From NCBI GenBank assembly GCA_039000165.1, contig JAWBTW010000003.1, forward strand, positions 21,187 through 79,355: 58,169 nucleotides of DNA, in the 5' to 3' direction. Position 1 is the stretch's first letter. Every line of letters begins with the position of its first letter. Below the pieces are notes generated by a model. The model searched no databases. It was given only the letters and a program-made list of their open reading frames with translations, and was not told where the DNA came from. Source of the stretch: Candidatus Aenigmatarchaeota archaeon. Lineage in GTDB: Archaea > Aenigmatarchaeota > Aenigmatarchaeia > CG10238-14 > SCSR01. The position numbers and the translations under genes were made by a program. Below, piece after piece: positions 2 through 48,337 of this stretch.

Positions 2-892
2 AATGGAACTGTAGAAACAGTGTATGGTGAAGAATGCGAACTCCCAAACACTCAAAACAATAATTATTGCACAAATCCTTCTAATCATTGTGAATCTACT
101 CCTGGAAAGTATTGTATTTATAGCGATTTGTACGGTAATTGTAATGAAAATTGCATATGCGTACCTGATACTCCAACTTGTAATTGTTATTGGGGTGGTG
201 ATGGTGAAGGAGAAACTTATTGCAATGCTCAATGTGATTCAGATGACGACTGCCTACCAAGGTTAAGTGGAGATTACTGTTATTACAATAGAAAATGTTT
301 GGACAACTGTGTATGTTCAGAAGGAGATAAAGTGTTTTGTCCTCAAACAGTTCCTTACTTTGACCCTAACACCAACACATGTTACTATGGTGATTATAGA
401 GGATGTAACCAGAACGGATGTACTTTAGCAACTTGTAAGCCTGGACAAGGTGAGGCTTGTACGCAACACGGATGTACCGGTGCTATTGATTTTGATTTGA
501 AAGTTGGTGTAGAAAAACTAAACTCAACTGTTGATCAAACATTCTTTATAAAAGTTTATGTTAAAAACATAGGAAATTACGAGGATAACTATAAGTTTAA
601 GTTAAGCACCACACCAAATGTCCAGGCAAAGCTTTATGATACTGAAATAAGAAATGTTAAGCCGAAATCCTTGGTAACTAATACTATCCAAGCTAAAGTT
701 CTATCTCAAACACAACATGCGGAAATTAACATAACTGTTAGTTCTACCTCACTACCTTCAAGAAACAAAACAGTAGTAGTGGAAATTAAAGCTGAAAAAG
801 CAAATTTGAGTGACTTAAACACTTTTTCAGTAATTTTGCTACTTTTAATTTCTCTTTCAGTTTTAACTAAGAATATCCTAAGCCAAGAGTAA
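2..892 (+). CDS. Cys-rich surface protein, C-terminal part (5'-truncated by window edge), ending in Ig-like domain + SDLxxFS motif + TM anchor
   Basis: Frame is open from position 2 (track starts at GTG 20). Dense Cys motifs (CDSDDDC, C-x3-C-x-C). The last ~135 aa align by eye with the C-terminus of 22559..25633. Hydrophobic tail VILLLLISLSVL followed by K. Confidence 0.85.
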   Translation, partial: NGTVETVYGEECELPNTQNNNYCTNPSNHCESTPGKYCIYSDLYGNCNENCICVPDTPTCNCYWGGDGEGETYCNAQCDSDDDCLPRLSGDYCYYNRKCLDNCVCSEGDKVFCPQTVPYFDPNTNTCYYGDYRGCNQNGCTLATCKPGQGEACTQHGCTGAIDFDLKVGVEKLNSTVDQTFFIKVYVKNIGNYEDNYKFKLSTTPNVQAKLYDTEIRNVKPKSLVTNTIQAKVLSQTQHAEINITVSSTSLPSRNKTVVVEIKAEKANLSDLNTFSVILLLLISLSVLTKNILSQE

Positions 893-1880
893 AAGCATAA
901 ACTTCAAAAAAATCTCCCTTATAAACGTTTATGTAAGAGTTTTCATAACCTAAAACTTTTTTCCCATTCTCTTCATGTTTGTTAGAAGCCCAAAGAATTA
1001 AATAAGTTAAAATCCATTTCTCTTTATCGTCTAGGGAGCCATCTTTAGTTAAGTTTGCAACCCATGCAGTTCTACCATAATCCTTGTTTAAAATAACTGC
1101 CGGAACTTTTACGCCTGTAGAATTTTTGAAATTGAAAAGAATGTTAGCCTCACTTTTTGCTGTTATGTTAGCTAAGTTAAAAGAACTTGAAAAGGTATAC
1201 GGTGAACCAAAAATTCTACGCAGGTATTTCCAAGGCCCATAAACAATATCTCTAGAATTCTCTGGTTTTCTTGAAAGCTCTATGGTTTGAATATTATTTA
1301 TATAACCTGAAGCTGGAACCAAACCAAAAATTTTTTTATGTCCTTCGTCTGCGTCGAGCTGTGTATAGGTTATATCAGAAACTTCAACTATTCCTTTATC
1401 TTCAGCTAAAAAATTCTTTAGCAAATCGAAGTAATCATTTAAGTTGTTATAACCCCAAATCAGAAGAACGTCAGAAGAAGGAATAAGAGTTAAACTTGAA
1501 GAAACGATCTCAAATTTTATCTCCCTTCCGTTTAAAGTTATGGTGTTTAAAAAGGTTCCCAACTCATTTATAACCTCATCGCTACACTTACATGCTATGG
1601 TGATTTTCTTCTTAACAGCATTTTCTGTTGAAGTCCAAGCAACTAAGGGATGATTCACTAAATTTTTCTGGTAAAGAAATTCCGGAGATTCAAAAGAATA
1701 TAAATAAAGCTCTTTGTTTCTTTCCATCGAAAGAATTATGTCTCTTGAAATTAAGTTTAACCAAACCTTATCCCAATTGTGTTTGAAAGAAAGAGAGGGA
1801 AAGAAAAAATTAAACATCACAAAAAGTATTATAACTGCGCTAATCATCTCGACAACAAAAACAAAACCTTTTCTTTCCAT
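867..1880 (-). CDS. Pilin-like/pilus-associated protein with class III-like signal peptide
   Basis: N-terminus MERKG|FVFVVE followed by a hydrophobic helix; last gene of the pilus operon. Confidence 0.6.
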   Translation of the reverse strand: MERKGFVFVVEMISAVIILFVMFNFFFPSLSFKHNWDKVWLNLISRDIILSMERNKELYLYSFESPEFLYQKNLVNHPLVAWTSTENAVKKKITIACKCSDEVINELGTFLNTITLNGREIKFEIVSSSLTLIPSSDVLLIWGYNNLNDYFDLLKNFLAEDKGIVEVSDITYTQLDADEGHKKIFGLVPASGYINNIQTIELSRKPENSRDIVYGPWKYLRRIFGSPYTFSSSFNLANITAKSEANILFNFKNSTGVKVPAVILNKDYGRTAWVANLTKDGSLDDKEKWILTYLILWASNKHEENGKKVLGYENSYINVYKGDFFEVYAFTLGLGYS

Positions 1881-2393
1881 TTACCACACCTGAACCACTA
1901 ATTCAACATAGCCTCCTGTAGATAAAGCTGCTACCCTTCTTACAGTTATATTCGTTGGAGTTATCTTAACTTTCCCGGGAGGCGGGAAGCAACTAACCAG
2001 AATATTACGATTAGGTAATTGGAACATTAGCAAAGAAAAATCAAATTCAGCTCCAATTTTTTCTTTAACTTTTTCGTAGCCTTGAGGTTGACTGCAAAAA
2101 CTGTTCAAGCTATCGATTTTTGTCCGACTAAGAAAGTTTGTTTTGTTTTTTGAGAAATCAGAAAGGCCAAATCTGTTAACTGAATCAAGATCAAGTTCCC
2201 ACTCTATAGGATGACCAAAATCGTTTATTAAAAGTTCAGAAATTTGATAAGCTTCAAGTCTTTTTCTTTCGGTTTCCATTTCTTGGAGATAGATAGGATA
2301 GTACCTTAAAAGTAAGAAAAAAAGATAGGCTACAAAACTTATAAAAACTCCCATAGACGCTATAAATTCCACAAAACTTAGTTCGCCTTTCAT
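1881..2393 (-). CDS. Pilin-like protein (class III-like signal peptide)
   Basis: MKG|ELSFVE plus hydrophobic helix; abuts the TadC-like gene. Confidence 0.6.
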   Translation of the reverse strand: MKGELSFVEFIASMGVFISFVAYLFFLLLRYYPIYLQEMETERKRLEAYQISELLINDFGHPIEWELDLDSVNRFGLSDFSKNKTNFLSRTKIDSLNSFCSQPQGYEKVKEKIGAEFDFSLLMFQLPNRNILVSCFPPPGKVKITPTNITVRRVAALSTGGYVELVVQVW

Positions 2394-3397
2394 TAAGCTC
2401 CCATTATACCAAAGTTTACAAGTATGAAGAAGGAACCAAACGTTATTATAGCCATTATTATGCTATGTTTAACTCCTGAAATAGCAGAGCCCTCGCTAAT
2501 TTCTCCAGCAACCAAACCGCAAAAAATTGATTCAACTATTGCCATTAAGAAGAATAAAGAAGTGTAGTAAGAACCCATATTCTCTGGAGCTCTTATATCA
2601 CTCAAGTTGAAAATTGAAGCAATCCCCCCTAAGATATCGCAAAAAACGCATGAAAATTGAGAGCAAAAAGTACAAGGGTTTTGCAAACCAATCATCTCTA
2701 ATTGACCAATAGCTTCAACCTTGAATATGGGAATCATAAGCCTGTTTATTCCTACAACTATACCGATAAATAAAAAATTAATTATGTACATGAGAATAAC
2801 ATATTGACTAAGCAAACTTTTTCTTTCCTTTTCATAATCATCAAGAACTGTCATATTTTCTGCTACTGTCTCTAGAGTAGAAATTATGTCCCCGCCAGAA
2901 AGATAGGCTTCCTTAATTATTTTTGAGACGATTGTAAGCCTCTTGCTTGCTTTTACTCTTTCTGCAAACTGATCCAAAACTTTATCGAAAGACATGCCCC
3001 AAGAGATTTGGGAAGCCATCTTCTTGATTTCTGGTGTAAGCTTTCCATATTCATACTTACTTGCTATCATCACGGAAGTATGGAGTGGTGAGCCAGACCT
3101 CAAAGCTTCTATAACATCTCTCAAGAAAAAAGGAAATTTTTCTTCCATTTCTTTTATTTCTCTTGCTTTCATATACTTAAAGAAAAACAAAGGTCCAGCT
3201 ACAGCAAAAGCTGAAAGAATTATGGAATTTCCTAGCACTGCTCTATCGTTACTGAGTATTCCAACAGCTAAGAAAAAAGCACAAGCTACAACGGAAGCGA
3301 TCAAAACTTTTGTGTTAGTTGAGAGTTCAAACTTTTTAGGATAAAGCTTAACTTTTTTCGCTGGCTTAACTTTTTTCTCTTCTTTTGCTTTCATCAT
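2393..3397 (-). CDS. Type II secretion system F / TadC-like pilus membrane platform protein
   Basis: FPFFLRDVIEALRSG...YGKLTPEIKKM...GMSFDKVL pattern typical of the T2SSF domain; multiple TM helices; downstream of the pilus ATPase. Confidence 0.88.
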   Translation of the reverse strand: MMKAKEEKKVKPAKKVKLYPKKFELSTNTKVLIASVVACAFFLAVGILSNDRAVLGNSIILSAFAVAGPLFFFKYMKAREIKEMEEKFPFFLRDVIEALRSGSPLHTSVMIASKYEYGKLTPEIKKMASQISWGMSFDKVLDQFAERVKASKRLTIVSKIIKEAYLSGGDIISTLETVAENMTVLDDYEKERKSLLSQYVILMYIINFLFIGIVVGINRLMIPIFKVEAIGQLEMIGLQNPCTFCSQFSCVFCDILGGIASIFNLSDIRAPENMGSYYTSLFFLMAIVESIFCGLVAGEISEGSAISGVKHSIIMAIITFGSFFILVNFGIMGA

Positions 3398-4263
3398 TCA
3401 CCGCCTGGACTTATGCTTTTGATAAAAATTATGAAAGCTAAAGAAACAATAGGCAAGAAAAGAAATATTACTAAAAATTGAAGAAAGATTATGTTGCTTC
3501 CAATTCCTGCCAAACCACTAAAAATTGCTGAAAGAATGGTGAAAAAGACTGCGCCCAAAATTATTGCTGTTATATAAATTTCTATAAACATCGTTAGTTG
3601 ATGAGAAAATTCATAAAGCTTTCTCCTGTATTCTGTCATAAAAGTTCTTGCCTTTTCTCTTAAGAATGAATGAATATCTCCTCCTGTTGTACTCATAGAT
3701 AATAAGCCCCAAAAAAGTTCTCTCAAGTTTTTTGAGGGTGCCCTTTCTACTGCTCTTTCTAGAGCTGTATTTATGTCCATTCCGAAAGTTTCTGTATCGT
3801 TAACTATTGATTTTATTTCTTCTGTGAATTGACCGTATTCACTATAAGTTGAAAAAATCTTGAAAACTTTGTGCAAAGGGACTTTTGATCCTGCTATCGT
3901 TGATAAGTAGACAGAAGCAAAAGGTAAAATTTTATCTATTTCTTTTGCTCTCTCCCTTATTACCAGTTTAGGGTAGCTCATCATGGAATAAAAGAAAGTT
4001 AGGGAAAAGAACATAGAAATAGTAAAGGAAAAGATAAAACTAAACAAAGGGTTTTGGGAAATTATAACAAAAATGACACAAAGCATAGGAAACTCTGCAC
4101 AAAAAACTATTAAGCCTGTTAGGATTGCTATGCTTATGTATTCTTGGATAGAATAGCCCATTCTTGCTCTCCTTAGATCAGTTTTCACTTCTGTATAATA
4201 AGGAGCTAGTTTTTCTCCCCATTCACCAAAGTATCTCATAGCTATGGTAGTGTAAAAACCCAC
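3394..4263 (-). CDS. Type II secretion system F / TadC-like pilus membrane platform protein
   Basis: LPFASVYLSTIAGS...GMDINTALERAVERAPS...GGDI T2SSF pattern; TM helices. Confidence 0.88.
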   Translation of the reverse strand: MGFYTTIAMRYFGEWGEKLAPYYTEVKTDLRRARMGYSIQEYISIAILTGLIVFCAEFPMLCVIFVIISQNPLFSFIFSFTISMFFSLTFFYSMMSYPKLVIRERAKEIDKILPFASVYLSTIAGSKVPLHKVFKIFSTYSEYGQFTEEIKSIVNDTETFGMDINTALERAVERAPSKNLRELFWGLLSMSTTGGDIHSFLREKARTFMTEYRRKLYEFSHQLTMFIEIYITAIILGAVFFTILSAIFSGLAGIGSNIIFLQFLVIFLFLPIVSLAFIIFIKSISPGGE

Positions 4264-6050
4264 TATTTCCCACCCATTATGGAAGCCAAAACTTTTTCTG
4301 GAGAAGTGTAGTACATGTTAAAAACATTGTAAACATCTTTATAGCGGGTAATGTTCTTCTCCACCATCCAATTCAAGACAACCATTCTCCTTTCTAGCTC
4401 CTCTTTTACTTGCTGCTCTGTCAAACCCATAAATTCAGCTATTTTTTTCAAAGTCATACTTTTGTTAACAACTACAATTTTATCTTTCATAGCGTCCCAT
4501 CTAAAAACTTCGTTTACGATTGGCTCTTTCGTTTCTGGGTCTATCCCGACTATTTCTATGATTTGATTAACCTTTCTCACATGCTTTTCTCTGTATCTTA
4601 CTCTCAAAAGAAAAACCACCAAATCCAAACTTCCTATCAAACTAGCAGGTAATGAGATTGGTGGTGTGGTCAACCTATCAATAAGCTTGTTTATGTTTTC
4701 TGCATGAATCGTTGCTAAAGAAGGATGACCGGTTGCCATTTCTTGGAATAAAACATAAGCTTCTCTTCCTCTAACCTCACCTACAACTATATAGTCAGGC
4801 CTTTGTCTCAAGCTTTCTTTGAGTAAATCAAACAAATCTATTTCTCCTCTTAATTTTTTATCTTCAGTTCCTATTGCAGTTCTTGCAACATAAGGAACCC
4901 AGTGAGGATGTGGCAATTTAAGTTCAGGTGTATCTTCTATGGAAACTATTCTTTTTTCTGGCCTGATAAAAAGTGAAAGTACGTTGAGCAGAGTTGTTTT
5001 CCCTGAAGCAGTTCCTCCTGCAACTAAAACACTTCTTCCAAAATCAACAGCGAGCCAGAGAAAAGCCAAGGAAGGAATGTCGATAGTATTATACTTCAAG
5101 AGGTGGATTGGAGTTAAAGGTTCAATCGTAAACTTTCTAATGGTAAAATTGGAACCTCTTCTTGCTATATCCGTAGCCAAAGCTGCTTGGACTCTGCTTC
5201 CGTCGGGAAGCGAACCTCCAACAAGGGGGGTAGCTACTGATATGGATTTTCCACAAAGTTGAGCAAGTCTATGAATGAAAGAATCAAGCTCGTCTGGATC
5301 TTCAAAAACTATGTTTGTGACTATGGATCCTAGCTTAGGGTTTCTGTGAAAAACAAATATGGGAATGCCCACCCCGTCACAACTTATATCTTCTATATTT
5401 TCATCAGCCATTAAAGGTTCTATCCTTCCCAAACCGATGAAATCCCTTTCTATATAGTATCTGATTATGAGCTTTTCTTTCTCGCTTACTTCTATCCTGT
5501 AATAGCTTAGCAAATCGTCTATGGTTTTATAAAGATAATTTTTCATTTCAAATTTTTTCAATTTTCCAAACTCTACATCGAGCTTTTCTTGAATCAATTC
5601 CTTGAGCTTATTTATTATTTCTTTAAGTCTATCTGTTAGTTCAGGTTCGATAACTTGGTAAACATACTTGTTTAACGAAGTATCCCAAAAGATTTTTGCG
5701 TATGCAAAAACAAGCTCATCCTTTTGAGGCTTTCTTGGAATCAAAGGATATGCTAGGGTAATCTTCCTTTTTTCTTCTTCTGTTAAAGGAATCTCACCAA
5801 TCTCTATCTTTTCGGGTATAAATTCTGGTATTTCTATTCCATCTACAAGCTTTGGTTTCTCGACAGGCTTAATTTCTGTTTCCTTTTTTTCTTCCTTTTT
5901 TTCCTCTATCCTCTCTATTTTTATGGGAATTGTAATAGGAGCTAAGCCTTGAAAACCAATTTGCGAAGGCAAAACTTGAATTTGTTTGCTCATGTATTTT
6001 TTATATCCTTCCTTTGCCCTTCTTAAAAAATTTTTTAAAAGCTCCACCAT
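4263..6050 (-). CDS. Type IV pilus assembly ATPase (VirB11/TadA/FlaI family)
   Basis: Walker A GGTASGKTT, Asp box IEDTPE, LRQRPDYIVVGEVRG, His box GHPSLATIHA. Confidence 0.95.
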   Translation of the reverse strand: MVELLKNFLRRAKEGYKKYMSKQIQVLPSQIGFQGLAPITIPIKIERIEEKKEEKKETEIKPVEKPKLVDGIEIPEFIPEKIEIGEIPLTEEEKRKITLAYPLIPRKPQKDELVFAYAKIFWDTSLNKYVYQVIEPELTDRLKEIINKLKELIQEKLDVEFGKLKKFEMKNYLYKTIDDLLSYYRIEVSEKEKLIIRYYIERDFIGLGRIEPLMADENIEDISCDGVGIPIFVFHRNPKLGSIVTNIVFEDPDELDSFIHRLAQLCGKSISVATPLVGGSLPDGSRVQAALATDIARRGSNFTIRKFTIEPLTPIHLLKYNTIDIPSLAFLWLAVDFGRSVLVAGGTASGKTTLLNVLSLFIRPEKRIVSIEDTPELKLPHPHWVPYVARTAIGTEDKKLRGEIDLFDLLKESLRQRPDYIVVGEVRGREAYVLFQEMATGHPSLATIHAENINKLIDRLTTPPISLPASLIGSLDLVVFLLRVRYREKHVRKVNQIIEIVGIDPETKEPIVNEVFRWDAMKDKIVVVNKSMTLKKIAEFMGLTEQQVKEELERRMVVLNWMVEKNITRYKDVYNVFNMYYTSPEKVLASIMGGK

Positions 6051-6051
6051 C

Positions 6052-6462
6052 CTATTCTACCCTTAATTTATTTTCTGTTTTGCTAAATGTTAAAGTTAAT
6101 GTTTTTGTTATAACTGCACTACCAGCTGAACTAACAGAATAATTCAAATTACTTAAAGAAAAAGAGTACCTTCTTTCATTTGGCAATATTATTTCCCAAA
6201 CATTGTCAGCCTTAACTATAAACTCGTAGTTTGGGTTGAGGTTAATAATAACCCTAGAGTCTTCACACTCCTTACAGGAATCTATAAGAGATATGGCTGT
6301 AGAAGTAATATAATCAGCAACAATTTTTGCATTTCTATAGCTCAACTCGTTTATAAAGAAATCAGACTGTATCTTAAAGAAGCTGCCTATACTTAAGAAC
6401 ACCACAAACCCTACAACAAAAAAAATTATGAATTGGATTATGTAACTTTGGGCTTTTTTCAT
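6052..6462 (-). CDS. Putative pilin (class III signal peptide)
   Basis: MKKA|QSYIIQ followed by hydrophobic helix FIIFFVVGFVVFL. Confidence 0.7.
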   Translation of the reverse strand: MKKAQSYIIQFIIFFVVGFVVFLSIGSFFKIQSDFFINELSYRNAKIVADYITSTAISLIDSCKECEDSRVIINLNPNYEFIVKADNVWEIILPNERRYSFSLSNLNYSVSSAGSAVITKTLTLTFSKTENKLRVE

Positions 6463-6464
6463 TC

Positions 6465-7097
6465 TTACCCAAGAAGTATTTGTACTTCTGTAATAATCAA
6501 GTTATTGGTTGGGTCAAACTTTGGCTCGGTTATTCTTGAAATCCTTATTGATTTACCTGTCGAAGCGTTATAACTAGGGTTTCTCGGTAAAAGCCTTGTT
6601 TGATAAATTTTCCCATCTTCAGTAAGGTTTCTTAACCATATTCTATACCTTATTATAAAAGCGTTATCTGAACTTTCGGCCTTAGCTAAAACAACAGTTG
6701 CTTCATCTATACCCACATATCCAGGAGAAATTATACTAGAAGTTTTAAAAGGTATCCAACCTAACTCTGGAGCTATATTAGTTACTTTGCTTCTGAACAT
6801 GAACTCGAGAGAATTGTTCTGAGGGCCAGGATAATCGTAAGGATAAAGTTGCCATATTCCGTCTACTTCTGAATTAAAAGTCTCCTCACCACCATTCCTT
6901 GCAACAAATTCTATTTTTTTCACCAGGGAATTTGCATTATCCCTATCAAAATAGCTTGCAACTTTTTCAACCATTGCAACCTCTTGCCTTTTTTGAACGA
7001 GAGGCATACCCCATAAATAAGCTGAAGTTGTTAAAGTTGCAGCTAAAAGGATTATAATAACGGCAGTAATTACATCTGCTTGACCTTTAAACCCCAT
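6465..7097 (-). CDS. Putative pilin (class III signal peptide)
   Basis: MGFKG|QADVITAVIIILLAATL, a canonical KG|Q archaeal prepilin site. Confidence 0.75.
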   Translation of the reverse strand: MGFKGQADVITAVIIILLAATLTTSAYLWGMPLVQKRQEVAMVEKVASYFDRDNANSLVKKIEFVARNGGEETFNSEVDGIWQLYPYDYPGPQNNSLEFMFRSKVTNIAPELGWIPFKTSSIISPGYVGIDEATVVLAKAESSDNAFIIRYRIWLRNLTEDGKIYQTRLLPRNPSYNASTGKSIRISRITEPKFDPTNNLIITEVQILLG

Positions 7098-10300: not shown

Positions 10301-10394
10301 GGGCCTATAGCTCAGCCTGGTTAGAGCAATCGCCTTATATGGCTCGCTTTCGTGAGAAAGCGATAGGTCGAGGGTTCAAATCCCTCTAGGCCCA
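10301..10394 (+). tRNA. tRNA-Ile(UAU) with 19-nt intron at 37/38 (10340..10358)
   Basis: Acceptor GGGCCTA/TAGGCCC, D-stem GCTC/GAGC, anticodon stem ATCGC/GCGAT, loop CT-TAT-A|A, T-arm GAGGG-TTCAAAT-CCCTC. BHB central helix CUUA/UGAG. Spliced length 75 nt; CCA not encoded. Confidence 0.92.
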
Positions 10395-11789: not shown

Positions 11790-12164
11790 ATGGAAATACA
11801 AGAAGCTTTTGGAAAAGTTGTTAACCTTTCTCACAAGAGTTTAGAAAAAGCGCTTGAGGTTTTAGAGTTAAGCAAAGATAAACTTGAGAAGAACATAAAA
11901 AATAAGAAATTCTTGATTTCTCATAAAAATTTTGACTTAATAATCGATTACAAACCAAACTCAAAACAAATTGTTCTTTATTTAACTGCAAAAAAATGGA
12001 GTAAAAAGTTGTTAAAAAGCTTAAAAGAAGGGGACGAATTTAAGTCTATGGTTGTTCTTTTAGGAAATACAAAAATTCTTAAAAGTGACTTTGACATAAG
12101 AATAGGTGCTTTTGGTATTCCTAGCTCTGAACTTGTAAGAGCAGTAATCCAGCATAAATCATAA
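11790..12164 (+). CDS. Hypothetical protein
   Basis: 124-aa ORF filling the gap, host-like codon usage; no motif recognised. Confidence 0.7.
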   Translation: MEIQEAFGKVVNLSHKSLEKALEVLELSKDKLEKNIKNKKFLISHKNFDLIIDYKPNSKQIVLYLTAKKWSKKLLKSLKEGDEFKSMVVLLGNTKILKSDFDIRIGAFGIPSSELVRAVIQHKS

Positions 12165-20951: not shown

Positions 20952-21353
20952 ATGGAAAAAAAGGAGCTCCAAGAAAAAATCTTAGTTTATAGGCTTTTGG
21001 AAGCTAGGCTCAATTCTCTACTTAAAGAAAGGGAACTGCTGATAGCAAAAATCGTAGAAATTCAAACTACTTTACAAAGTATAGAGGAAATTAAGAAAAG
21101 TGAAGAGGTGCTCTTTGCCTTAGGCTCAGAAGCTTACGCTTTCGGAAAAATAAAAGAAAAAGACAAGATTATAGTTGAAGTTGGTAGTAACATAGCTTTA
21201 GAAAAAAATTTTGACGACGCAAAAAAAACTTTGGAGAAAAGGAGAGTTGAAATAGAAAAAACTTTGAATGATGCAGAAAAGGAAATTAACGAGATTTCTT
21301 TAAGACTTCAAGAACTTGCCCCAGAAATAGAGAAACTAGTTAAAGGGAGTTGA
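20952..21353 (+). CDS. pfdA: Prefoldin subunit alpha
   Basis: Coiled coils around LFALGSEAYAFGKI...IIVEVGSNIALEK; upstream of ftsY as usual in archaea. Confidence 0.93.
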   Translation: MEKKELQEKILVYRLLEARLNSLLKERELLIAKIVEIQTTLQSIEEIKKSEEVLFALGSEAYAFGKIKEKDKIIVEVGSNIALEKNFDDAKKTLEKRRVEIEKTLNDAEKEINEISLRLQELAPEIEKLVKGS

Positions 21354-22490
21354 ATGTTCGGAATTCTTAAGAAAAAAATCTCAAAAGCAATAGAAGCTAT
21401 CTCTGAGAAATTTAAGAAAAAAGAAGAAGTTAGCAAAAGGATTGAGAAAAAAATCGAAGAAATGGAAAAGAAAGAACCTGAAAAAGTTATCGAAGAAATA
21501 AAAAAAGAAACTCAAAGTGAAGAAGTTGAGAGAATTCTTGAAGAAAGTGAAAAGGAAATAAAAGAAGCTAAACCAAAGGAAAGAAAAGGTCTTATCAAAA
21601 AAGTTAAGGAGAAGATAATAAAGAAAATAAGAGAGAAGAAGTTAGAAGAAAAAGATTTGCTTCCTGTTCTTAATGAAATGAAGTTTGACTTGATAGAAGC
21701 TGATGTTGCTTTAGAAGTCGCAGAAAAAATAATAAACGAGCTTAAAAATAGCCTTTTGGGAAAAGAAATTAAGAAAGGTGAAGAGGGAAAGATTATAAAA
21801 GAAGCATTAAGGAAAAGTTTGTTTGAAATTCTTTCGGTTCCAAAAATAAGTCTTGAAGAAACAATAGAAAAAGCAAAAAAAGAAAACAGACCTGCACTTT
21901 TTGTTTTTCTTGGTTTTAATGGTGTAGGAAAATCTTTGAATTTGGCAAAAGTAGCTCTTTGGCTCAAGAATAAAGGTTACAAACCCCTGATAGCAGCAGG
22001 TGATACTTTCAGAGCTGCTGCAATAGACCAAATAGAGGAATACGCAAAACTTGTTGGCGCGCCGGTAATCAAGCAAAAGTATGGGGCTGATTCTTGCGCA
22101 GTAATTTACGATGCAAGAAAAGCTGCAAGCGCAAGAGGTTTTGATGTAGTTTTAGCTGATACTGCAGGAAGAAGCCACATGAATAAAAATTTGATGGAGG
22201 AACTAAACAAGATTTGTAGGATAAACAAACCAGACCTTAAAATTTTAGTTCTGGATAGCTTAAGCGGAAGTGATGTCATTAATCAGTTTAACTTTTTTGA
22301 TAAGGCTGTAGGTGTGGATGCGGTTATATTTTCAAAAGTTGATGTTAACGAGAAAGGTGGAAACATTCTTTCTGTTTGTTACTCTTTTAAAAAACCAATT
22401 TTATTCATTGGTATTGGCCAGAAACCTGAGGATTTGATGGAATATAACCCGAACTTTTTTGTTTCAAACTTACTAGAAAATAACGTTTAA
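21354..22490 (+). CDS. ftsY: Signal recognition particle receptor FtsY
   Basis: GFNGVGKS, AGDTFRAAAIDQ, DTAGR, SKVD..KGG; charged N-terminal region. Confidence 0.96.
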   Translation: MFGILKKKISKAIEAISEKFKKKEEVSKRIEKKIEEMEKKEPEKVIEEIKKETQSEEVERILEESEKEIKEAKPKERKGLIKKVKEKIIKKIREKKLEEKDLLPVLNEMKFDLIEADVALEVAEKIINELKNSLLGKEIKKGEEGKIIKEALRKSLFEILSVPKISLEETIEKAKKENRPALFVFLGFNGVGKSLNLAKVALWLKNKGYKPLIAAGDTFRAAAIDQIEEYAKLVGAPVIKQKYGADSCAVIYDARKAASARGFDVVLADTAGRSHMNKNLMEELNKICRINKPDLKILVLDSLSGSDVINQFNFFDKAVGVDAVIFSKVDVNEKGGNILSVCYSFKKPILFIGIGQKPEDLMEYNPNFFVSNLLENNV

Positions 22491-22558
22491 CTCTTTATTT
22501 TAAATAAAAAAGTCTAGAAAAGCGACCGAACAACAATTAAAAATTATATCACTGAGAA

Positions 22559-25500
22559 TTACATGCTATTGCTGTACATTCTCTTTATTAAAAAAATTAC
22601 CGAAACTCCTATAATCAAAACAATAGAGAAAACATCTAAATCGCTCATGCTACTACTTCCAATTTTAAGTTTTATGGTAATTTCTTTACTTCTTCTTGAG
22701 CTTTTTGAGGTTACGAGAACTTTAACTTCTTCTCCTTGGGAAGAAAATGCAAAAACTTTTATTTCTACTTTTGTAGAAACTACCGAACCTGGTAAAACAT
22801 TTGAAATTTCTTTATCATAAACTCTCGCTTGAACGTTAGAAGAAGTTGTAACGCTGAAATTGTAAGAATCTTTTGTTAATCCTGTATTTTTTACGTAAAT
22901 AGAAACAGGAAAAGCTTGACCTACAGTAACGCTTAATTCGCCAATTCCAGTCCAAATATCAAAATCAGCTTGTGTGCTACCTATACACTTGCAAGAAGCG
23001 TCACAAGTACCACCTGTACCACAGTCTGAACCTACTTTTTTACCATCACATTCTAAATCAGCTCCACATGCAGCATTACATATATCAGTACAAGAACCTG
23101 CTGAACAACCAAAAGGATTACAGGTTTGAGTATTTGCCAATTGCCAAAACTTATTACAATTTCCGAACCCGTCACATCTATATAGTTTTTGACCTTTTGT
23201 ACAAGGATCTTCACACTCATTTTGAATTAAGCAAGCAACAGAAGACAAACATTGCCCAGCTGAACAAGAGGTATCTACAGGACAATTTTCTGTATGACTA
23301 TAAACGCAATTGCAAGAACTATCGTAAACATAAACTTTTCTTCCACATGAACCATCACATTCTGACTTACATCTGTCGCCTGGAGTGCATGTTACACTTC
23401 CAGATACATTATAACTACCTGTAGCAACCGTATTTCCGTTAGGATCTTTTATTTTTAAATCCAAAGTACAACTTGTACCAGCTCTCTTAACTGTCACGCT
23501 AAAAGCATTAGTCAAAGTGCTACCTCTGTTTATAGAGAAAGAATTTGTGCTTATGCCAGTACTTGCGGAATCACAGCTTCCTGAAGTTGAATAAGAAATA
23601 GAATAAGTTATTGGGGAAATGCAATGACTGTTTGAAGAATCGGTAACATTTATGTTCCAAGTCTTAGTAGTATCACTCCAGGTTTCAAACTCAGGAGTAA
23701 TCGATAAGGAATAAGAACAGGCTCCACAGGGAGTTGTTTGCCATTTATATCCGTTATCGTAACAACACCAATAATCTGTGTTGTTGCAAGATTGCTTAGT
23801 GTTCACCTTAGTGGAATCACAAGTCCATTCATTTTTTACTATCCAATCACCAGTCCAGGCACAAACATTGCCAAACAAAGGAACACACTCATAATCTCTA
23901 CATTCTTCCCTTAGTTTTGAACCATACACAGCACACCTGCAATAATTGTTATCGTAATTGTCACAATTCTCAGATTGGTAAACACAATTTCCGTTTGAGC
24001 ATGTACCATAATGAACATAGTCACAAGTAATATCCTTACATTCATCTCCTGAAGAATGCGTGGCAGATTTTGAACAATGTTTTGTTCCGCAAGGGGCACC
24101 ATTATTGTAATCAAAATTAGCAGTTTGAGTAGGAGTATTACCTTTATCTGCGAACAAAATAGCTTCCATATCAATCTTTACAGTTGCAGGATTTGCTGTT
24201 CCTGTGTAGCCACCGCTCCAATTAGCAGTCCAGTTTTTGAATAGGTAACAAGTATAAGGAGATGCTGAGATAGACGCATTTGCGCCGTAATTGTACCATC
24301 CTGCGCCGGAAATATTGCCCCAGCTAGGATTGTTAGCTGTAACATTTAGGTAAACCTGATAAGCATAATAGGCTGTATAGGTTGCTGGGTAAGAAGGAGT
24401 AATTATCGAATGTGTTTGAGATCCTCCATCAGACCAGCTTAAAAAAATGAAACGAATAGCTGGTTTTCCTTTTAGATAATTGGGAGAAGGTGCTGATAGA
24501 TTATGTGAAGATCCTGGCAACCACTCAAAATAGCTTGGAGTTCGGTAAGGAACTTTGTCTACTTCTATAGTCAAACCCTGAGGAGATGAGTCGATTGTAA
24601 TTATCACAGGTTGAATTTTTGTATAACTACATACCTTTCTGTTCACAATGATGCTACAATTTTGTATTTCATCCATATAAGAGTCTGAGTAATTACACTG
24701 ATAAGCATCGCTAGAAGTTCCGGACATAACTCTTACTTTATAAGTATAGGAAGTATTTGTAACTACACATTTATCTATGGTAGACGGATCGTTATCGTTA
24801 CAATCGGAATCACTGTTACATTGATTGCTACCTGGCGCAATTAGAGTTTTAGAGTAATAGTTCCAAGTACATGCATCTTTGTCATAAACATTACATGCTT
24901 CTTGTTTTGAACCTTGATAGATGGAGATAACCTGCCACCAGTAGGCACCTGGAGCGGCAGTACCATAATCCGTTCCCTTAAAGTAAAAGGAAATGTTAAA
25001 AGGGTCTCCTACATTTACAACTGAAGGGCAACTTAAATCTTTAATCTTAGACTTGCTTACAGGTGTTTCGTCTAAATCAGCAGGAGCACCACAAGCAGAT
25101 TCACATTCTTTATCACCTTCTTTAGGTTCATCTCTTGGATAAATCGTAGTAGTGTCTGCCATGATTTTAACCTCTATTGGAGAATAAGCATCACATACCA
25201 CACACTTACCTTCTTTCCCATCAAATTTACCTTCATACCTGTCACAATAACATCCCCAATCCCACCTGTCATAATAAACTGCACAAACGGTATCTTCGGT
25301 AGAACCTGGGCAAGAACCTGTTTTGCATGCTGAATAGTACCCTGGACAACCTGCTAGACCTCCACAACAGTCTGGAAAGCCTCTACACAATTCGGAACCT
25401 ATTGCACAACTTTGCCAAGGTGACCAACCTATTTTAGCAAAACCACCTTCGCAGTACCAAAAAACCCCATCAGTACACTTATAACTTGGAGCTGGTCTAC

Positions 25501-25633
25501 CGCCACAATCGCAACCGCAAGCGGCAAAAGAATCCTTTACCATCAGTAGAAAGGAAAAAACTATTAGAGGTATTAAAATTGTGTTCCAAACTTTCAATCT
25601 CTTGAAGTTCATTGCCAACACTACCATTAACAC
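22559..25633 (-). CDS. Large Cys-rich surface protein with InlB B-repeat-like and Ig-like domains and C-terminal SDLxxFS-TM anchor
   Basis: N-terminal signal peptide (likely start ATG 25612 or 25627); many Cys clusters; GNISGAGWYNYGANASISASP..YLFKNWT repeat-like unit; C-terminal module shared with 2..892. Confidence 0.88.
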   Translation of the reverse strand: MLMVVLAMNFKRLKVWNTILIPLIVFSFLLMVKDSFAACGCDCGGRPAPSYKCTDGVFWYCEGGFAKIGWSPWQSCAIGSELCRGFPDCCGGLAGCPGYYSACKTGSCPGSTEDTVCAVYYDRWDWGCYCDRYEGKFDGKEGKCVVCDAYSPIEVKIMADTTTIYPRDEPKEGDKECESACGAPADLDETPVSKSKIKDLSCPSVVNVGDPFNISFYFKGTDYGTAAPGAYWWQVISIYQGSKQEACNVYDKDACTWNYYSKTLIAPGSNQCNSDSDCNDNDPSTIDKCVVTNTSYTYKVRVMSGTSSDAYQCNYSDSYMDEIQNCSIIVNRKVCSYTKIQPVIITIDSSPQGLTIEVDKVPYRTPSYFEWLPGSSHNLSAPSPNYLKGKPAIRFIFLSWSDGGSQTHSIITPSYPATYTAYYAYQVYLNVTANNPSWGNISGAGWYNYGANASISASPYTCYLFKNWTANWSGGYTGTANPATVKIDMEAILFADKGNTPTQTANFDYNNGAPCGTKHCSKSATHSSGDECKDITCDYVHYGTCSNGNCVYQSENCDNYDNNYCRCAVYGSKLREECRDYECVPLFGNVCAWTGDWIVKNEWTCDSTKVNTKQSCNNTDYWCCYDNGYKWQTTPCGACSYSLSITPEFETWSDTTKTWNINVTDSSNSHCISPITYSISYSTSGSCDSASTGISTNSFSINRGSTLTNAFSVTVKRAGTSCTLDLKIKDPNGNTVATGSYNVSGSVTCTPGDRCKSECDGSCGRKVYVYDSSCNCVYSHTENCPVDTSCSAGQCLSSVACLIQNECEDPCTKGQKLYRCDGFGNCNKFWQLANTQTCNPFGCSAGSCTDICNAACGADLECDGKKVGSDCGTGGTCDASCKCIGSTQADFDIWTGIGELSVTVGQAFPVSIYVKNTGLTKDSYNFSVTTSSNVQARVYDKEISNVLPGSVVSTKVEIKVFAFSSQGEEVKVLVTSKSSRRSKEITIKLKIGSSSMSDLDVFSIVLIIGVSVIFLIKRMYSNSM

Positions 25634-25743
25634 TACTAATATATATTTGTATTTTTTTGATGTTTAAAGTTCTCGATTAAACTTAACTTTGTTTTCTTCA
25701 AATTAAGTATTTATTATCTAAGCTTAGAAGTATTAATGGGAAA

Positions 25744-27066
25744 ATGTTCGATAGCCTGGGAAAAAACCTTAGTGGTTTGATAAGAAGAATAATAACAGGC
25801 GTTACCATAGACAAAAAAGCAGTAGAAGAAATTTTAGACAATTTAAAAGTAATTCTGTTGCAAGCTGATGTTGACGCTAAGCTTACCGAGGAGCTAATAA
25901 CAAAAATAAAGAGAAAATGTTTAGAAGAAAAAATTCCTGCAGGCTTAACTCTCAGAGAGCATGTGTTAAAGGTAATATATGAAGAACTGGTAAATTTGCT
26001 TGGAGGAAGACCATCTACTCTAATTGGAAAGAAAAAAATAATGGTTGTTGGTTTGTTTGGCTCAGGAAAAACAACAAGCATAGCGAAAATTGCAAAGTAT
26101 TTCCAAAAGCAAGGATTAAAGCCTGCTTTAGTTGCCTTAGATTATCATAGACCTGCTGCTGTTGAGCAACTTTTACAGTTAGGGAAACAAATTAACGTTC
26201 CTGTCTATTTTGATGAAAGTAAAGACCCTTACAAATGCGCAAAAGATGCTTTGGAGAGATTTAAAAACTATGATACAATAATTTTTGACACTGCAGGAAG
26301 GGATGCTTTAGATAAAGAGTTAGCAGAAGAATTAAGAAAATTGGGGGAAATAATTAAGCCAGATGAAGTTTTGCTAACGATTCCTGCAGATATAGGTAAA
26401 ATTGCTGGTCCTCAAGCAAATGAATTCAACAAGCTAGTAGGAATTACAGGAGTAATAGTAACTAAAATGGACGGCACGGCAAAAGGAGGAGGAGCCTTAA
26501 CTTCTTGCTTTGCTACAGGGGCAAAAGTTAAATTCATAGGAACAGGAGAAAAGCTAGAAGATCTAGAAGTTTATAACCCAGAAAGGTTTGTTTCTAGGTT
26601 GCTCGGCTTAGGTGATTTACAAACTTTGTTAGAAAAAGCAAGAGAAGCAGAAATCAAGCCTGAGAAAGTTGAAAAAATAATTGAAGGTAAGTTTACCCTT
26701 CAAGATTTTTACGAGCAAATTCAGGCTATGCAAAAAATGGGACCGCTTTCAAAAGTAATACAAATGATTCCAGGTTTAGGAATGCAGCTTCCAGAAGAAC
26801 TTTTAGAAAAACAGGAAGAGAAACTAAGGAACTATAAGTACATTATTGATAGTATGACCAAAGAAGAAAGGGAAAACCCAGAGATAATAAACTCAAGTAG
26901 AATTTCAAGAATTGCTAAAGGGAGCGGAAGACCTGAATCTGAAGTTAGGGAATTGCTTAGCCAGTATGAGAAAATGAAAAAGTTACTAAAAACTTTTGGT
27001 GGAAAGGCTGGACTCGAAAGAGGAAACTTGAAAAAGCTTGCAAAACAATTTGGATTTAGGTTTTAA
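25744..27066 (+). CDS. srp54: Signal recognition particle protein Srp54
   Basis: GLFGSGKTT, DTAGR, TKMDGTAKGGG, Met-rich M domain (SRISRIAKGSG). Confidence 0.97.
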   Translation: MFDSLGKNLSGLIRRIITGVTIDKKAVEEILDNLKVILLQADVDAKLTEELITKIKRKCLEEKIPAGLTLREHVLKVIYEELVNLLGGRPSTLIGKKKIMVVGLFGSGKTTSIAKIAKYFQKQGLKPALVALDYHRPAAVEQLLQLGKQINVPVYFDESKDPYKCAKDALERFKNYDTIIFDTAGRDALDKELAEELRKLGEIIKPDEVLLTIPADIGKIAGPQANEFNKLVGITGVIVTKMDGTAKGGGALTSCFATGAKVKFIGTGEKLEDLEVYNPERFVSRLLGLGDLQTLLEKAREAEIKPEKVEKIIEGKFTLQDFYEQIQAMQKMGPLSKVIQMIPGLGMQLPEELLEKQEEKLRNYKYIIDSMTKEERENPEIINSSRISRIAKGSGRPESEVRELLSQYEKMKKLLKTFGGKAGLERGNLKKLAKQFGFRF

Positions 27067-27067
27067 A

Positions 27068-40356: not shown

Positions 40357-40427
40357 TTTTAATTAGAATAGCAAAAAAATTAATTCCTTTGGTTTTTAGT
40401 TTATGCAATTAGTTAAACAAAGTAGTA

Positions 40428-40523
40428 TAGCCCCGAGCGGATTCGAACCGCTGTCACGAGGTTTCTCCCAGCGACCAGAGCCTTCTACCCTTTTCGTATG
40501 CTTGGCCGCTGCACCACGGGGCT
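40428..40523 (-). tRNA. tRNA-Gln(CUG) with two introns (29/30 and 37/38)
   Basis: AGCCCCG/CGGGGCT acceptor. Removing 40483..40493 (11 nt) and 40463..40474 (12 nt) gives CGAGG-CT-CTG-GA-CCTCG and a 73-nt tRNA. Central helices AUAC/GUAG (3 of 4 pairs) and CUCU/GGAG. Confidence 0.9.
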
Positions 40524-40614
40524 ATATGTAATAATTAAGGGGACAAAATTAAAAATGTGACATTTGGAAAAATATTTTAACTTATTCTTTTTAAAAATAT
40601 TTTAAGTGAAAAGG

Positions 40615-47864: not shown

Positions 47865-47978
47865 CCCCGCTTAGCTCAATGGTAGAGCGACCGGCTGTAG
47901 GCGAGCGCTTTGGCGCTTGCTAGTAGCTATCGCTCGGTCAATACCGGTAGGTTGGGAGTTCAAGTCTCCCAGCGGGGA
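47865..47978 (+). tRNA. tRNA-Tyr(GUA) with 42-nt intron at 37/38 (47901..47942)
   Basis: C1:G72 acceptor CCCCGCT/AGCGGGG, ACCGG/CCGGT stem, CT-GTA-G|A loop; spliced length 72 nt. The junction motif is non-canonical. Confidence 0.88.
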
Positions 47979-48048
47979 CTATTATTTTTAGGCTATAAAA
48001 ACCAAAAACTTTAAAAGTTTTTAAATTCCAAATATCATAAATATATTC

Positions 48049-48164: not shown

Positions 48165-48239
48165 AATTTAAATTGGTGTCTGTATTAAAGAAAAAACAGA
48201 GAATGATGACTTTTCCTTAGAATTCCATGAAATAAGGAT

Positions 48240-48325: not shown

Positions 48326-48337
48326 TTTGGTGAAATT

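What the first reader, a model, noticed from the sequence alone, without database searches (positions are those of the whole stretch)
485..892. Shared C-terminal Ig + SDLxxFS + TM module: candidate new archaeal surface-sorting signal
Seen: two Cys-rich surface proteins 22 kb apart (2..892 and 22559..25633) end in the same ~135-aa module. Shared elements are DFD, TV.Q.F, YVKN.G..D.Y.F and NVQA..YD.EI.NV.P.S.V, then LSDLNTFS (806..829) vs MSDLDVFS (22625..22648) directly before a hydrophobic helix and a short tail with basic residues. Known: motif + TM + basic tail is the layout of PGF-CTERM and PEF-CTERM signals processed by archaeosortases. Inference: SDLxxFS-CTERM may be an undescribed sorting or anchoring signal shared by a paralogous adhesin family with interchangeable Cys-rich N-termini.
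Basis: partly seen in the sequence, partly recalled or inferred. Interest (0 to 1): 0.75.

Follow-up and report, generated by a model that had tools for sequence, protein, structure and literature searches.

The report
Conserved C-terminal membrane-anchor module, DPANN surface proteins
Two large cysteine-rich surface proteins of a tiny symbiotic-type archaeon (Aenigmatarchaeota) end in the same undescribed cassette (an Ig-like domain, a short conserved acidic motif, one membrane helix and a basic tail) that most likely pins them to the cell membrane; there is no evidence yet that the tail is cut off like a sortase-type signal.

Summary
Proteins A (2..892, a fragment; 922 aa in full) and B (22559..25633) share a ~140-aa C-terminal module (BLASTP E 1e-30, 39% identity) at the stated coordinates.

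An exhaustive profile search finds 44 cluster representatives with the whole module at the extreme C-terminus. The nearest are from Candidatus Aenigmatarchaeota MAGs.

The module is a 9-strand NEW3/CARDB-like Ig sandwich, an 8-residue linker, a TM helix and a K/R tail (AlphaFold pLDDT 92.5). The motif lies in the linker and helix cap, not in the last Ig strand.

Across the family the motif reads [SN]-[LM]-x-[DE]-Φ-[DN]-x-Φ-[SG]. The acidic residue is invariant (40/40). One branch reads SLPEFD. The motif is the most conserved part of the module.

No Pfam or NCBIfam model, CTERM models included, matches it.

Against a portable sorting signal:
- The tail was never seen without the Ig domain, including 11/11 hits of a motif-only DNA scan.
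- No archaeosortase-like gene lies in ~300 kb of window and related loci.

Best reading: a retained type I anchor or pedestal cassette carrying variable ectodomains (0.5). Rival: a new processed CTERM signal (~0.27). The gene sits tail-to-tail with a type IV pilus operon in four genomes.

The parts
2..892 (+). 3' part (296 codons + stop) of surface-protein gene A. The full protein is 922 aa with an N-terminal signal peptide and 7.4% Cys.
   Evidence: the full length from L037 is identical over the window part
491..796 (+). Ig-like beta-sandwich of A (9 strands). It is a divergent NEW3/FixG_C/CARDB-type domain.
   Evidence: AlphaFold2 with a 37-sequence alignment, pLDDT 92.5, strands at model residues 10-111. 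Foldseek gives PapD/ASH/MSP/FixG-like Ig folds. Pfam CARDB/DUF11/HYDIN-Ig hits are only below threshold. A profile links it to NEW3/FixG_C repeats.
797..829 (+). Juxtamembrane linker and helix N-cap of A, KANLSDLNTFS. The invariant acidic residue is D (812..814).
830..865 (+). Hydrophobic transmembrane core of A (VILLLLISLSVL).
866..892 (+). Short cytoplasmic tail TKNILSQE plus stop. It overlaps the 3' end of the convergent pilin-like gene by 26 bp.
22559..25633 (-). Surface-protein gene B (1022-1024 aa): signal peptide, Cys-rich ectodomain with an InlB B-repeat-like stretch, and the C-terminal module.
   Evidence: It is identical to database protein P0001.
22562..22969 (-). C-terminal module of B: Ig domain, GSSSMSDLDVFS motif (MSDLDVFS = 22625..22648), TM 22586..22624 and tail KRMYSNSM.
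867..7097 (-). Type IV pilus-like operon convergent with gene A: pilin-like genes 867..1880, 1881..2393, 6052..6462 and 6465..7097; two T2SSF platform genes 2393..4263; T2SSE ATPase 4263..6050. Tail-to-tail adjacency with a module gene is conserved in four genomes.
21354..22490 (+). FtsY (SRP receptor), convergent neighbour of B.
   Evidence: The same adjacency is seen in L011.
25744..27922 (+). SRP54 (25744..27066) and a presenilin/SPP-type GxGD intramembrane aspartyl protease (27038..27922), divergent neighbours of B. This is a housekeeping cluster that also exists without B in L013.

Best explanation
The shared ~135-140-aa segment is one evolutionary and structural unit, a membrane-anchoring cassette of type I surface proteins of DPANN archaea. 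The window's branch is Candidatus Aenigmatarchaeota.

Proposed mechanism:
1. The proteins are exported through Sec by an N-terminal signal peptide.
2. Translocation stops at the single C-terminal helix. The K/R-containing tail stays in the cytoplasm, as the positive-inside rule predicts.
3. A rigid NEW3/CARDB-like Ig sandwich then sits only ~8 residues above the membrane. It acts as a pedestal for very different ectodomains, many of them Cys-rich, which are presumably adhesion or host-contact domains.
4. The conserved acidic motif ([SN]-[LM]-x-[DE]-Φ-[DN]-x-Φ-[SG]) forms the linker and the N-terminal cap of the helix at the membrane surface. Its function is an interface element of the mature protein: contact with lipid head groups or cations, docking on the base of the Ig domain, or contact with a partner. 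It is not a cleavage site.

Shown: the family, its position in the protein, the fold, the conservation pattern, the signal peptides, and the synteny with a type IV pilus operon.

Inferred: the topology, retention of the helix in the mature protein, and the adhesin role.
For: - Homology is real (E 1e-30). The family has 44 cluster representatives with the whole module at the extreme C-terminus, plus 15 further proteins and 4 loci in Aenigmatarchaeota MAGs.
- Structure: 9-strand Ig at residues 10-111, linker 112-119, helix 120-141, pLDDT 92.5.
- 44 of 50 Met-started members have an N-terminal hydrophobic signal-like segment. Full-length A and B have one too.
- K/R follows the helix: K27/R4 of 40 at the main column.
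- The tail is never separated from the Ig domain. This holds for all profile hits and all loci. In a scan for the motif alone at DNA level, 13 of 21 hits were C-terminal tails, and all 11 with enough upstream sequence carry the Ig domain (E 1e-5 to 1e-21).
- Minimal proteins of ~155-175 aa are only signal peptide + Ig + helix. One of them occupies the conserved pilus-adjacent position in L013. The cassette therefore has a role of its own.
- The helix carries position-specific polar or small residues: Q in 22/40 and S/A/C in 36/40.
- P0022 is a fusion of two tandem module proteins. Its internal tail, basic loop and second signal peptide form a topologically consistent hairpin.
- No archaeosortase, exosortase, rhomboid or CPBP hit among the annotated or polytopic proteins of the window (58 kb), +10 kb and -4 kb of flank, and ~240 kb of related loci.
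Against: - The motif is the most conserved part of the module, while the helix and tail evolve faster than the Ig domain: identity 0.68 versus 0.61, 0.43 and 0.38 in close pairs. This pattern is also what a cleaved tripartite signal would show.
- One branch reads L-P-[DE]-F, reminiscent of PEF/PEP-CTERM.
- Whole genomes could not be searched, so a processing enzyme encoded elsewhere is not excluded.
- No experimental data exist.
- The specific role proposed for the acidic motif is inference only.
Confidence: 0.5

Rival explanations
1. The tail is a new processed C-terminal sorting signal. After export a membrane enzyme recognises the acidic motif at the outer membrane face and removes the helix and basic tail. 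It then attaches the protein to a lipid or to the envelope, as ArtA does with PGF-CTERM. The enzyme could be an archaeosortase-like transpeptidase or an unrelated intramembrane protease. The Ig domain would be a fixed 'pre-signal' domain.
For: - Tripartite layout at the extreme C-terminus in all members.
- The motif is more conserved than the Ig core, while the helix and tail evolve fast.
- The L-P-[DE]-F variant resembles PEF/PEP-CTERM.
- There are several paralogues per genome with unrelated ectodomains: 2 in the window, 2 in MAG KM4338-55 (L011 and L014), and a tandem pair in P0022.
- No existing model describes it.
- From my own knowledge (Haft's 'PGF-pre-PGF' domain), a fixed domain in front of a CTERM signal has a precedent.
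Against: - No archaeosortase or exosortase family hit in about 300 kb examined.
- Archaeosortases are reported from a subset of Euryarchaeota (PMC6098224). No held paper links them to DPANN lineages.
- Motif positions other than the acidic residue are variable, with S/P/D/K/T/A before it. PGF and PEP are near-invariant by contrast.
- The tail is never found without the Ig domain.
- Minimal Ig-only proteins would leave a bare Ig domain as the whole mature product.
Confidence: 0.27
2. The Ig + helix cassette is an accessory membrane component, or cargo, of the neighbouring type IV pilus-like machinery. Examples would be a membrane-anchored Ig protein that docks the pilus base or an envelope layer, or an adhesin whose expression and placement are coupled to the pilus. 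Its conserved helix and motif would contact pilus platform or pilin-like proteins.
For: - The module gene lies tail-to-tail with the 337-aa pilin-like gene that ends the pilus operon in the window, L012, L013 and L014. This holds although the ectodomain varies from none (157-aa protein) to about 980 aa, and although L013 is only 37-39% identical in the pilin-like protein.
- In a distant branch a prepilin peptidase (Peptidase_A24) lies 2.4 kb upstream.
- The helix has conserved polar or small positions.
Against: - Paralogue B and its orthologue (L011) are not next to a pilus locus but next to FtsY.
- The distant ~270-aa branch is instead coupled to a large secreted protein and to GT-C glycosyltransferases.
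- The orientation is convergent, so the genes are not co-transcribed.
- The four genomes belong to one phylum, so inherited gene order is an alternative explanation.
Confidence: 0.15
3. The C-terminal helix is a substrate of a GxGD intramembrane aspartyl protease, namely the presenilin/SPP homologue encoded 1.4 kb from B. Cleavage would allow regulated release (shedding) of the ectodomain.
For: - The SPP-family gene 27038..27922 lies next to SRP54 and B.
- SPP is also within 5 kb of the module gene in L013.
- Another GxGD protease (A24) lies near the module gene in L001 and L003.
- Type I single-pass helices with short tails are the substrate class of presenilin-type enzymes (general knowledge).
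Against: - SPP-SRP54-FtsY-prefoldin is a housekeeping cluster that exists without an inserted module gene in L013, so proximity to B is probably incidental.
- Paralogue A and most family members have no such neighbour.
- There is no functional evidence.
Confidence: 0.06
4. The similarity is chance, or comes from low-complexity hydrophobic composition.
For: None beyond the fact that TM segments are compositionally biased.
Against: - E 1e-30 with composition-adjusted BLASTP.
- 17 database representatives at E <= 1e-10 in a search of 1.84 billion sequences.
- A confident common fold.
Confidence: 0.01

Closest known systems
PGF-CTERM / archaeosortase A, and PEF-CTERM / archaeosortase C, tripartite sorting signals (Haft, Payne & Selengut 2012; reviewed in PMC6098224)
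   Same: - A short signature motif directly before a single hydrophobic helix and a basic tail, at the extreme C-terminus of Sec-exported archaeal surface proteins.
- Several paralogues per genome with different ectodomains.
- One branch of the family even reads L-P-E-F.
   Different: - No match to any NCBIfam CTERM model.
- Only the acidic residue is invariant.
- The tail is always fused to one particular Ig domain.
- No archaeosortase was found nearby.
- The host lineage (DPANN) is not known to use archaeosortases.
- Cleavage and lipidation are unknown.
NEW3 (NPCBM_assoc, PF10633) / FixG_C (PF11614) / CARDB (PF07705) / DUF11 Ig-like domains of archaeal and bacterial surface proteins
   Same: - The same beta-sandwich fold and the typical V.V.N.G...D.Y strand pattern.
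- The module profile hits tandem NEW3/FixG_C repeats of large archaeal surface proteins at E 1e-13 to 1e-5, exactly where Pfam places those domains.
- NCBI names one family member a 'NEW3 domain-containing protein'.
   Different: - The module's own Ig domain stays below every Pfam gathering threshold.
- It occurs once per protein, always last.
- It is welded to a conserved motif + helix + tail that those families do not have.
C-terminally TM-anchored archaeal envelope proteins that are not processed (for example Sulfolobus SlaB, as described in PMC6098224)
   Same: Sec-exported, with a single C-terminal helix as a permanent anchor and beta-rich domains as a stalk next to the membrane.
   Different: - No sequence relationship was tested or found.
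- SlaB is an S-layer stalk with a coiled coil. Here a single Ig pedestal carries variable Cys-rich ectodomains.
Loki-CTERM / Heimdall-CTERM sorting domains (NCBIfam NF033507, NF045529)
   Same: They are recently defined archaeal lineage-specific CTERM tails, which shows that such signals are still being discovered lineage by lineage.
   Different: The tail of a related NEW3-repeat protein (P0055...EIPGFT...) scores against them (E 0.0037 and 0.14). None of ten tails of this family does.

Membership tests
Archaeosortase-type CTERM sorting signal (PGF-/PEF-/PIP-/VPXXXP-/Loki-/Heimdall-CTERM) | Tripartite C-terminus: signature motif, then a hydrophobic helix, then a basic cluster, at the very end of a signal-peptide protein | tested here: met
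Archaeosortase-type CTERM sorting signal (PGF-/PEF-/PIP-/VPXXXP-/Loki-/Heimdall-CTERM) | Match to one of the curated CTERM profile models | tested here: not met
   NCBIfam scan of both full proteins and of ten tails at E <= 10 gave no CTERM model. As a control, the tail of P0055 gives Loki-CTERM at E 0.0037.
Archaeosortase-type CTERM sorting signal (PGF-/PEF-/PIP-/VPXXXP-/Loki-/Heimdall-CTERM) | A cognate archaeosortase/exosortase-family gene in the same genome | tested here: inconclusive
   None among Pfam-annotated or polytopic ORFs of the window, its flanks and ~240 kb of related loci. Whole genomes could not be searched.
Archaeosortase-type CTERM sorting signal (PGF-/PEF-/PIP-/VPXXXP-/Loki-/Heimdall-CTERM) | The signal is portable: it is found behind many unrelated domains | tested here: not met
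   All 44 profile hits and all loci have the Ig domain directly upstream. So do 11 of 11 assessable hits of the motif-only DNA scan. Caveat: that scan covered only the ASLP[DE]F...G[IV].QI variant.
Archaeosortase-type CTERM sorting signal (PGF-/PEF-/PIP-/VPXXXP-/Loki-/Heimdall-CTERM) | Proteolytic removal of the helix and tail, and covalent lipid attachment | not testable with these tools
   Needs proteomics or biochemistry.
NEW3/FixG_C/CARDB-like Ig (E-set) domains | Beta-sandwich Ig fold | tested here: met
   AlphaFold2 pLDDT 92.5 with 9 strands. Foldseek hits to PapD/ASH/MSP, FixG-related (2r39) and HYDIN Ig domains at E 1e-5 to 1e-4.
NEW3/FixG_C/CARDB-like Ig (E-set) domains | Score above the Pfam gathering threshold of one of these families | tested here: not met
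   Best values are CARDB E 0.0088 in 6 of 37 members, DUF11 0.0064 and HYDIN-Ig 0.0015, all below cut-off. Remote homology is nevertheless supported by profile hits on NEW3/FixG_C repeats.
Type I single-pass membrane (C-terminally anchored) surface protein | N-terminal signal peptide | tested here: met
   B: MNFKRLKVWNTILIPLIVFSFLLMVKDSFA. Full-length A: MLRKKIKFLIFFSFLLFLVIFLSISKG. 44 of 50 family members also have one, judged by hydropathy only and not by a dedicated predictor.
Type I single-pass membrane (C-terminally anchored) surface protein | One C-terminal hydrophobic helix followed by a positively charged cytoplasmic tail | tested here: met
   Helix at model residues 120-141. K/R columns follow the helix.
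Type I single-pass membrane (C-terminally anchored) surface protein | The helix is retained in the mature protein | not testable with these tools
   Inferred only.

The most novel reading that the evidence does not exclude
The cassette carries a DPANN-specific sorting signal of a new type. The invariant acidic juxtamembrane motif, read together with the adjoining Ig domain, would be recognised by an as yet unidentified membrane enzyme that is not a classical archaeosortase. That enzyme would cleave or lipid-anchor host-contact adhesins of ultrasmall episymbiotic archaea. This would be the first surface-protein sorting system defined for DPANN.
Probability: 0.2. Interest if true: 0.75.

Novelty: new member of a known kind. 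Interest (0 to 1): 0.42.

Why it matters
DPANN archaea live attached to other cells, and their surface proteins are the likely tools of that contact. Almost all of these proteins are annotated 'hypothetical'.

A recognisable C-terminal cassette is a practical handle for finding and classifying the surface proteome in DPANN metagenome bins. It consists of an Ig pedestal, an acidic motif, a helix and a basic tail. It is present on proteins from 126 to more than 1000 aa, and it lies next to a type IV pilus operon in four Aenigmatarchaeota genomes.

The cassette also poses a clear, testable question: is the tail retained or processed? If it is processed, it would define a new sorting pathway in a superphylum where none is known. 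If it is retained, it is a new domain family worth a Pfam or NCBIfam model, but not a new principle.

Tried and rejected
- Word-indexed homologue search with the two-sequence alignment found nothing.
A 40-49-aa tail alignment found nothing at E <= 10, because the profile is too short for a database of 5.8 billion sequences. The portability test was therefore done with a degenerate DNA pattern instead.
It was repeated with the 8 closest sequences.
- PDB sequence search gave only FlaF at E 0.26, which is not significant.
- The first single-sequence AlphaFold model (pLDDT 74) placed the helix start at the motif. It was superseded by the alignment-based model.
- The Haft 2012 paper could not be read because it is not held. 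Statements about PEF-CTERM, ArtC and PGF-pre-PGF therefore rest on the review PMC6098224 and on my own knowledge.
- Literature searches found no paper that links archaeosortases to DPANN lineages or describes this motif.
- I considered that the 'LPEF' branch makes the family PEF-CTERM. I rejected membership because the model does not match and P is not conserved.
- I considered recent gene conversion between A and B. I rejected it because the modules are only 39% identical.
- I considered SPP adjacency as a functional link. I downgraded it because the same cluster exists without the module gene.
Full report
OBSERVATION. Translating 2..892 (+) and 22559..25633 (-) gives the two proteins described. 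BLASTP of one against the other gives a single significant alignment (E 1e-30). It covers the last ~140 residues and, with long gaps, part of the Cys-rich region before them. Aligned alone, the last 140 residues are 39% identical. A script confirmed the coordinates: module start of A at 485, LSDLNTFS at 806..829, MSDLDVFS at 22625..22648, hydrophobic cores at 830..865 and 22586..22624. It also confirmed that the ectodomains are Cys-rich (23/161 and 74/888) while the modules contain no Cys. A six-frame HMM search finds only these two copies in the window. Protein A is truncated by the window edge. The identical gene on another contig is 922 aa with a typical signal peptide, and A and B resemble each other only in the C-terminal part (A 654-920 vs B 803-1019, 30%).

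ORGANISM AND CONTEXT. The window is archaeal. It encodes a thermosome, class I LysRS, Cdc6, Pus10, split RNA polymerase B, SRP54/FtsY and prefoldin, and its G+C content is ~33%. The closest relatives of the module are in MAGs labelled Candidatus Aenigmatarchaeota, and B itself is in NCBI assemblies of that group. Gene A is convergent with a type IV pilus-like operon and overlaps its last gene by 26 bp. The operon holds four pilin-like genes, two T2SSF genes and a T2SSE ATPase. Gene B lies between FtsY and SRP54. A presenilin/SPP-type protease follows SRP54.

THE FAMILY. The word-indexed search found nothing. An exhaustive HMMER search of 1.84 billion cluster representatives with the two-sequence profile gave 73 hits, which fall into two classes.
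- In 44 hits the whole profile (Ig + motif + helix + tail) matches once, within 25 residues of the C-terminus.
- In the rest only the Ig part matches, several times per protein. These stretches coincide with Pfam NEW3 (NPCBM_assoc), FixG_C, CARDB and DUF11 domains.
A second search with 37 aligned modules added 15 proteins.
Family members are 126-1022 aa long (median 271). Of 50 that start with Met, 44 have an N-terminal hydrophobic signal-like segment. Several (~155-175 aa) are nothing but signal peptide + Ig + tail. NCBI calls one member a 'NEW3 domain-containing protein' because of an internal domain, and the others 'hypothetical'.

STRUCTURE. AlphaFold2 with the 37-sequence alignment gives pLDDT 92.5. 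It shows nine strands (residues 10-111 of the 142-aa query), a less confident linker at 112-119 (KANLSDLN) and a helix at 120-141. Foldseek finds generic Ig sandwiches: PapD/ASH/MSP, a FixG-related protein, HYDIN, and an Ig domain of archaeal Fsx1. The motif is therefore not the last strand of the Ig fold. It is the juxtamembrane linker plus the N-terminal cap of the helix.

THE MOTIF. Forty confidently aligned members were analysed; five very divergent ones were set aside. The columns read G(28) x [AS] [S25/N11] [L25/M14] [S14/P14/D4/K3] [E25/D15] [F22/I8/L7] [D23/E5/N3] x [F/L/I/Y] [S15/G15]. The helix follows, with Q (22) or L (11) at its third column and a small residue (S20/A12/C4) five positions later, and then K/R. 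The only invariant property is the acidic residue. 'SDLxxFS' is the local form. A distant branch reads A-S-L-P-[DE]-F-[DT]-x-F-G-I-x-Q-I. Pairwise identity is highest in the motif at every level of divergence: 0.68 against 0.61 for Ig, 0.43 for the helix and 0.38 for the tail in close pairs.

KNOWN MODELS. Pfam gives only sub-threshold CARDB, DUF11 and HYDIN-Ig hits on the Ig part. NCBIfam includes the PGF-, PEF-, PIP-, Loki- and Heimdall-CTERM models. It gives nothing for the two proteins or for ten tails at E <= 10. As a control, the PGF-like tail of a NEW3-repeat protein from the same search (P0055) does hit Loki-CTERM (E 0.0037) and Heimdall-CTERM (E 0.14). The module is therefore undescribed in these libraries. 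The literature searches found no description of it.

IS THE TAIL A PORTABLE SIGNAL? A tail-only HMM finds only family members among all ORFs of the window and the fetched loci. A tail-only profile is too short for the big database. I therefore scanned the metagenome contigs for the DNA pattern encoding A-S-L-P-[DE]-F-x3-G-[IV]-x-Q-I, which does not depend on the Ig domain. There were 21 hits. Eight are unrelated internal matches. Thirteen are C-terminal tails with a helix, a basic end and a stop 27-33 codons after the motif start. All 11 with enough upstream sequence carry the Ig domain (E 1e-5 to 1e-21). So the tail behaves as part of one cassette, not as a free signal. The caveat is that only one motif variant could be scanned this way.

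IS THERE A PROCESSING ENZYME? No exosortase/archaeosortase, rhomboid or CPBP family hit appears among the proteins of the window, among 10 kb beyond its right end and ~4 kb beyond its left, or among the called genes of related loci. About 300 kb were examined in all. The polytopic proteins found are T2SSF, MgtE, SPP, prepilin peptidase A24, PMT_2-like GT-C glycosyltransferases and UbiA. This is not a whole-genome test. The review PMC6098224 describes archaeosortases as found in a subset of Euryarchaeota.

SYNTENY. In four Aenigmatarchaeota genomes (window, L012, L013, L014) a module gene lies tail-to-tail with the homologue of the 337-aa pilin-like gene. The ectodomain at that position ranges from none (157-aa protein) to ~980 aa. 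The second paralogue is next to FtsY in the window and in L011. In L013 the SPP-SRP54-FtsY-prefoldin cluster exists without an inserted module gene, so the proximity of SPP to B is probably incidental. In the distant ~270-281-aa branch the gene always follows a large secreted protein by 18-20 bp (DUF2341 in one case). GT-C glycosyltransferases are often nearby.

INTERPRETATION. The best-supported reading (confidence 0.5) is a retained type I anchoring cassette. Sec export proceeds through the signal peptide, transfer stops at the C-terminal helix, and the K/R tail stays inside. An Ig pedestal eight residues above the membrane then carries variable ectodomains, often Cys-rich. In DPANN these are plausibly adhesion or host-contact domains. 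The acidic motif would be an interface element of the mature protein.

The tripartite layout, the very strong conservation of the motif, the fast-evolving helix and tail, and the LPEF variant speak for it. The obligatory Ig domain, the variable motif positions, the lack of any sortase-like gene in the sampled DNA and the existence of Ig-only minimal proteins speak against it.

A link to the pilus machinery (0.15) and cleavage by the SPP homologue (0.06) remain possible. Chance is excluded.

VERDICT. This is a new, undescribed domain-plus-anchor family in DPANN archaea: a new member of the known kind 'C-terminally anchored Ig-stalk surface proteins'. There is a roughly one-in-five chance that it is also a new sorting signal. 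Interest is moderate (0.42).

Noticed in passing
window 867..7097 (-) with 2..892 (+); L012 539..2433; L013 9950..11599; L014 5343..9699: A module-protein gene is convergent with the last (337-aa, pilin-like) gene of a type IV pilus-like operon in four Aenigmatarchaeota genomes; the 3' ends overlap by 26 bp in the window and by 12 bp in L013, nearly abut in L012, and lie about 100 bp apart in L014. The ectodomain size at that position varies from 0 to about 980 aa.
   Followed up: partly
window 20952..27922; L013 4448..8830: Gene B is inserted into an otherwise conserved secretion/chaperone cluster, SPP (presenilin-type protease) - SRP54 - [B] - FtsY - prefoldin alpha. In L013 the cluster lacks the insertion.
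   Followed up: partly
window 10301..10394 (+): ARAGORN calls this a 'tRNA-Stop (tta)'. The Rfam alignment shows an intron-containing tRNA (about 20-nt intron after position 37) whose anticodon reads UAU, that is tRNA-Ile(UAU). From my own knowledge this is unusual and has been reported for Nanoarchaeum and Korarchaeum. The suppressor call is a mis-parse.
   Followed up: partly
window 47865..48326 (+): A 5S rRNA (48049..48165) is flanked by two tRNAs. The upstream one (47865..47978, 114 nt, presumably with an intron) is found by Rfam but missed by ARAGORN. ARAGORN in turn reports a tRNA-Ser at 40427..40524 (-) that Rfam's gathering threshold did not list.
   Followed up: no
window 46406..47830 (+): This is another signal-peptide protein (474 aa) with the V.V.N...D.F strand pattern near its N-terminus, a sub-threshold DUF11 hit at residues 351-436, and an internal hydrophobic segment near residue 321. 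It is a different architecture and is not hit by the module HMM.
   Followed up: no
protein P0022 (604 aa): Two complete module proteins are fused in tandem: tail 1 (VSLDEFNSKIF...RKLKKKR) runs directly into a second signal peptide, ectodomain, Ig and tail. It is either a real fusion or a missed stop. It shows that family genes occur in tandem.
   Followed up: partly
proteins P0016, P0035, P0042, P0049, P0070 and P0024, P0027, P0039: Large NEW3/FixG_C-repeat archaeal surface proteins end in two other recurrent tails: '..LSIPWLQIIIIAA..GYLTRRRGRGGRR..' and '..ELPVPLAIS..LLRRRPKKAARRR..'. Neither matches a CTERM model above threshold: only one of the eight tails scanned (P0049) gives a weak Loki-CTERM hit (E 0.21, 12 bits, cut-off 19.9), and P0027 was not scanned. 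They may be further undescribed C-terminal signals.
   Followed up: partly
L001 8271..10813; L004 8579..10840; L009 8683..10846; L041 7849..10816; L043 1314..3950: In the distant 270-281-aa branch the module gene always lies 18-41 bp (18-20 bp in four of the five loci listed, 41 bp in L001) downstream of a 430-710-aa secreted protein (DUF2341 or CarboxypepD_reg in two cases). Several 520-810-aa polytopic proteins are often nearby, one with a PMT_2 hit and others with no Pfam match. L001 and L003 also have a prepilin peptidase and radical-SAM/HxsD genes upstream.
   Followed up: partly
window 11790..12164 (+); L001 10944..11318; L009 10957..11328; L004 11629..11997: A conserved ~123-aa cytoplasmic protein without a Pfam hit (M.I.EAF..V.N...) lies just downstream of the module gene in the distant branch. 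By eye it resembles the window ORF 11790..12164. Its function is unknown.
   Followed up: no
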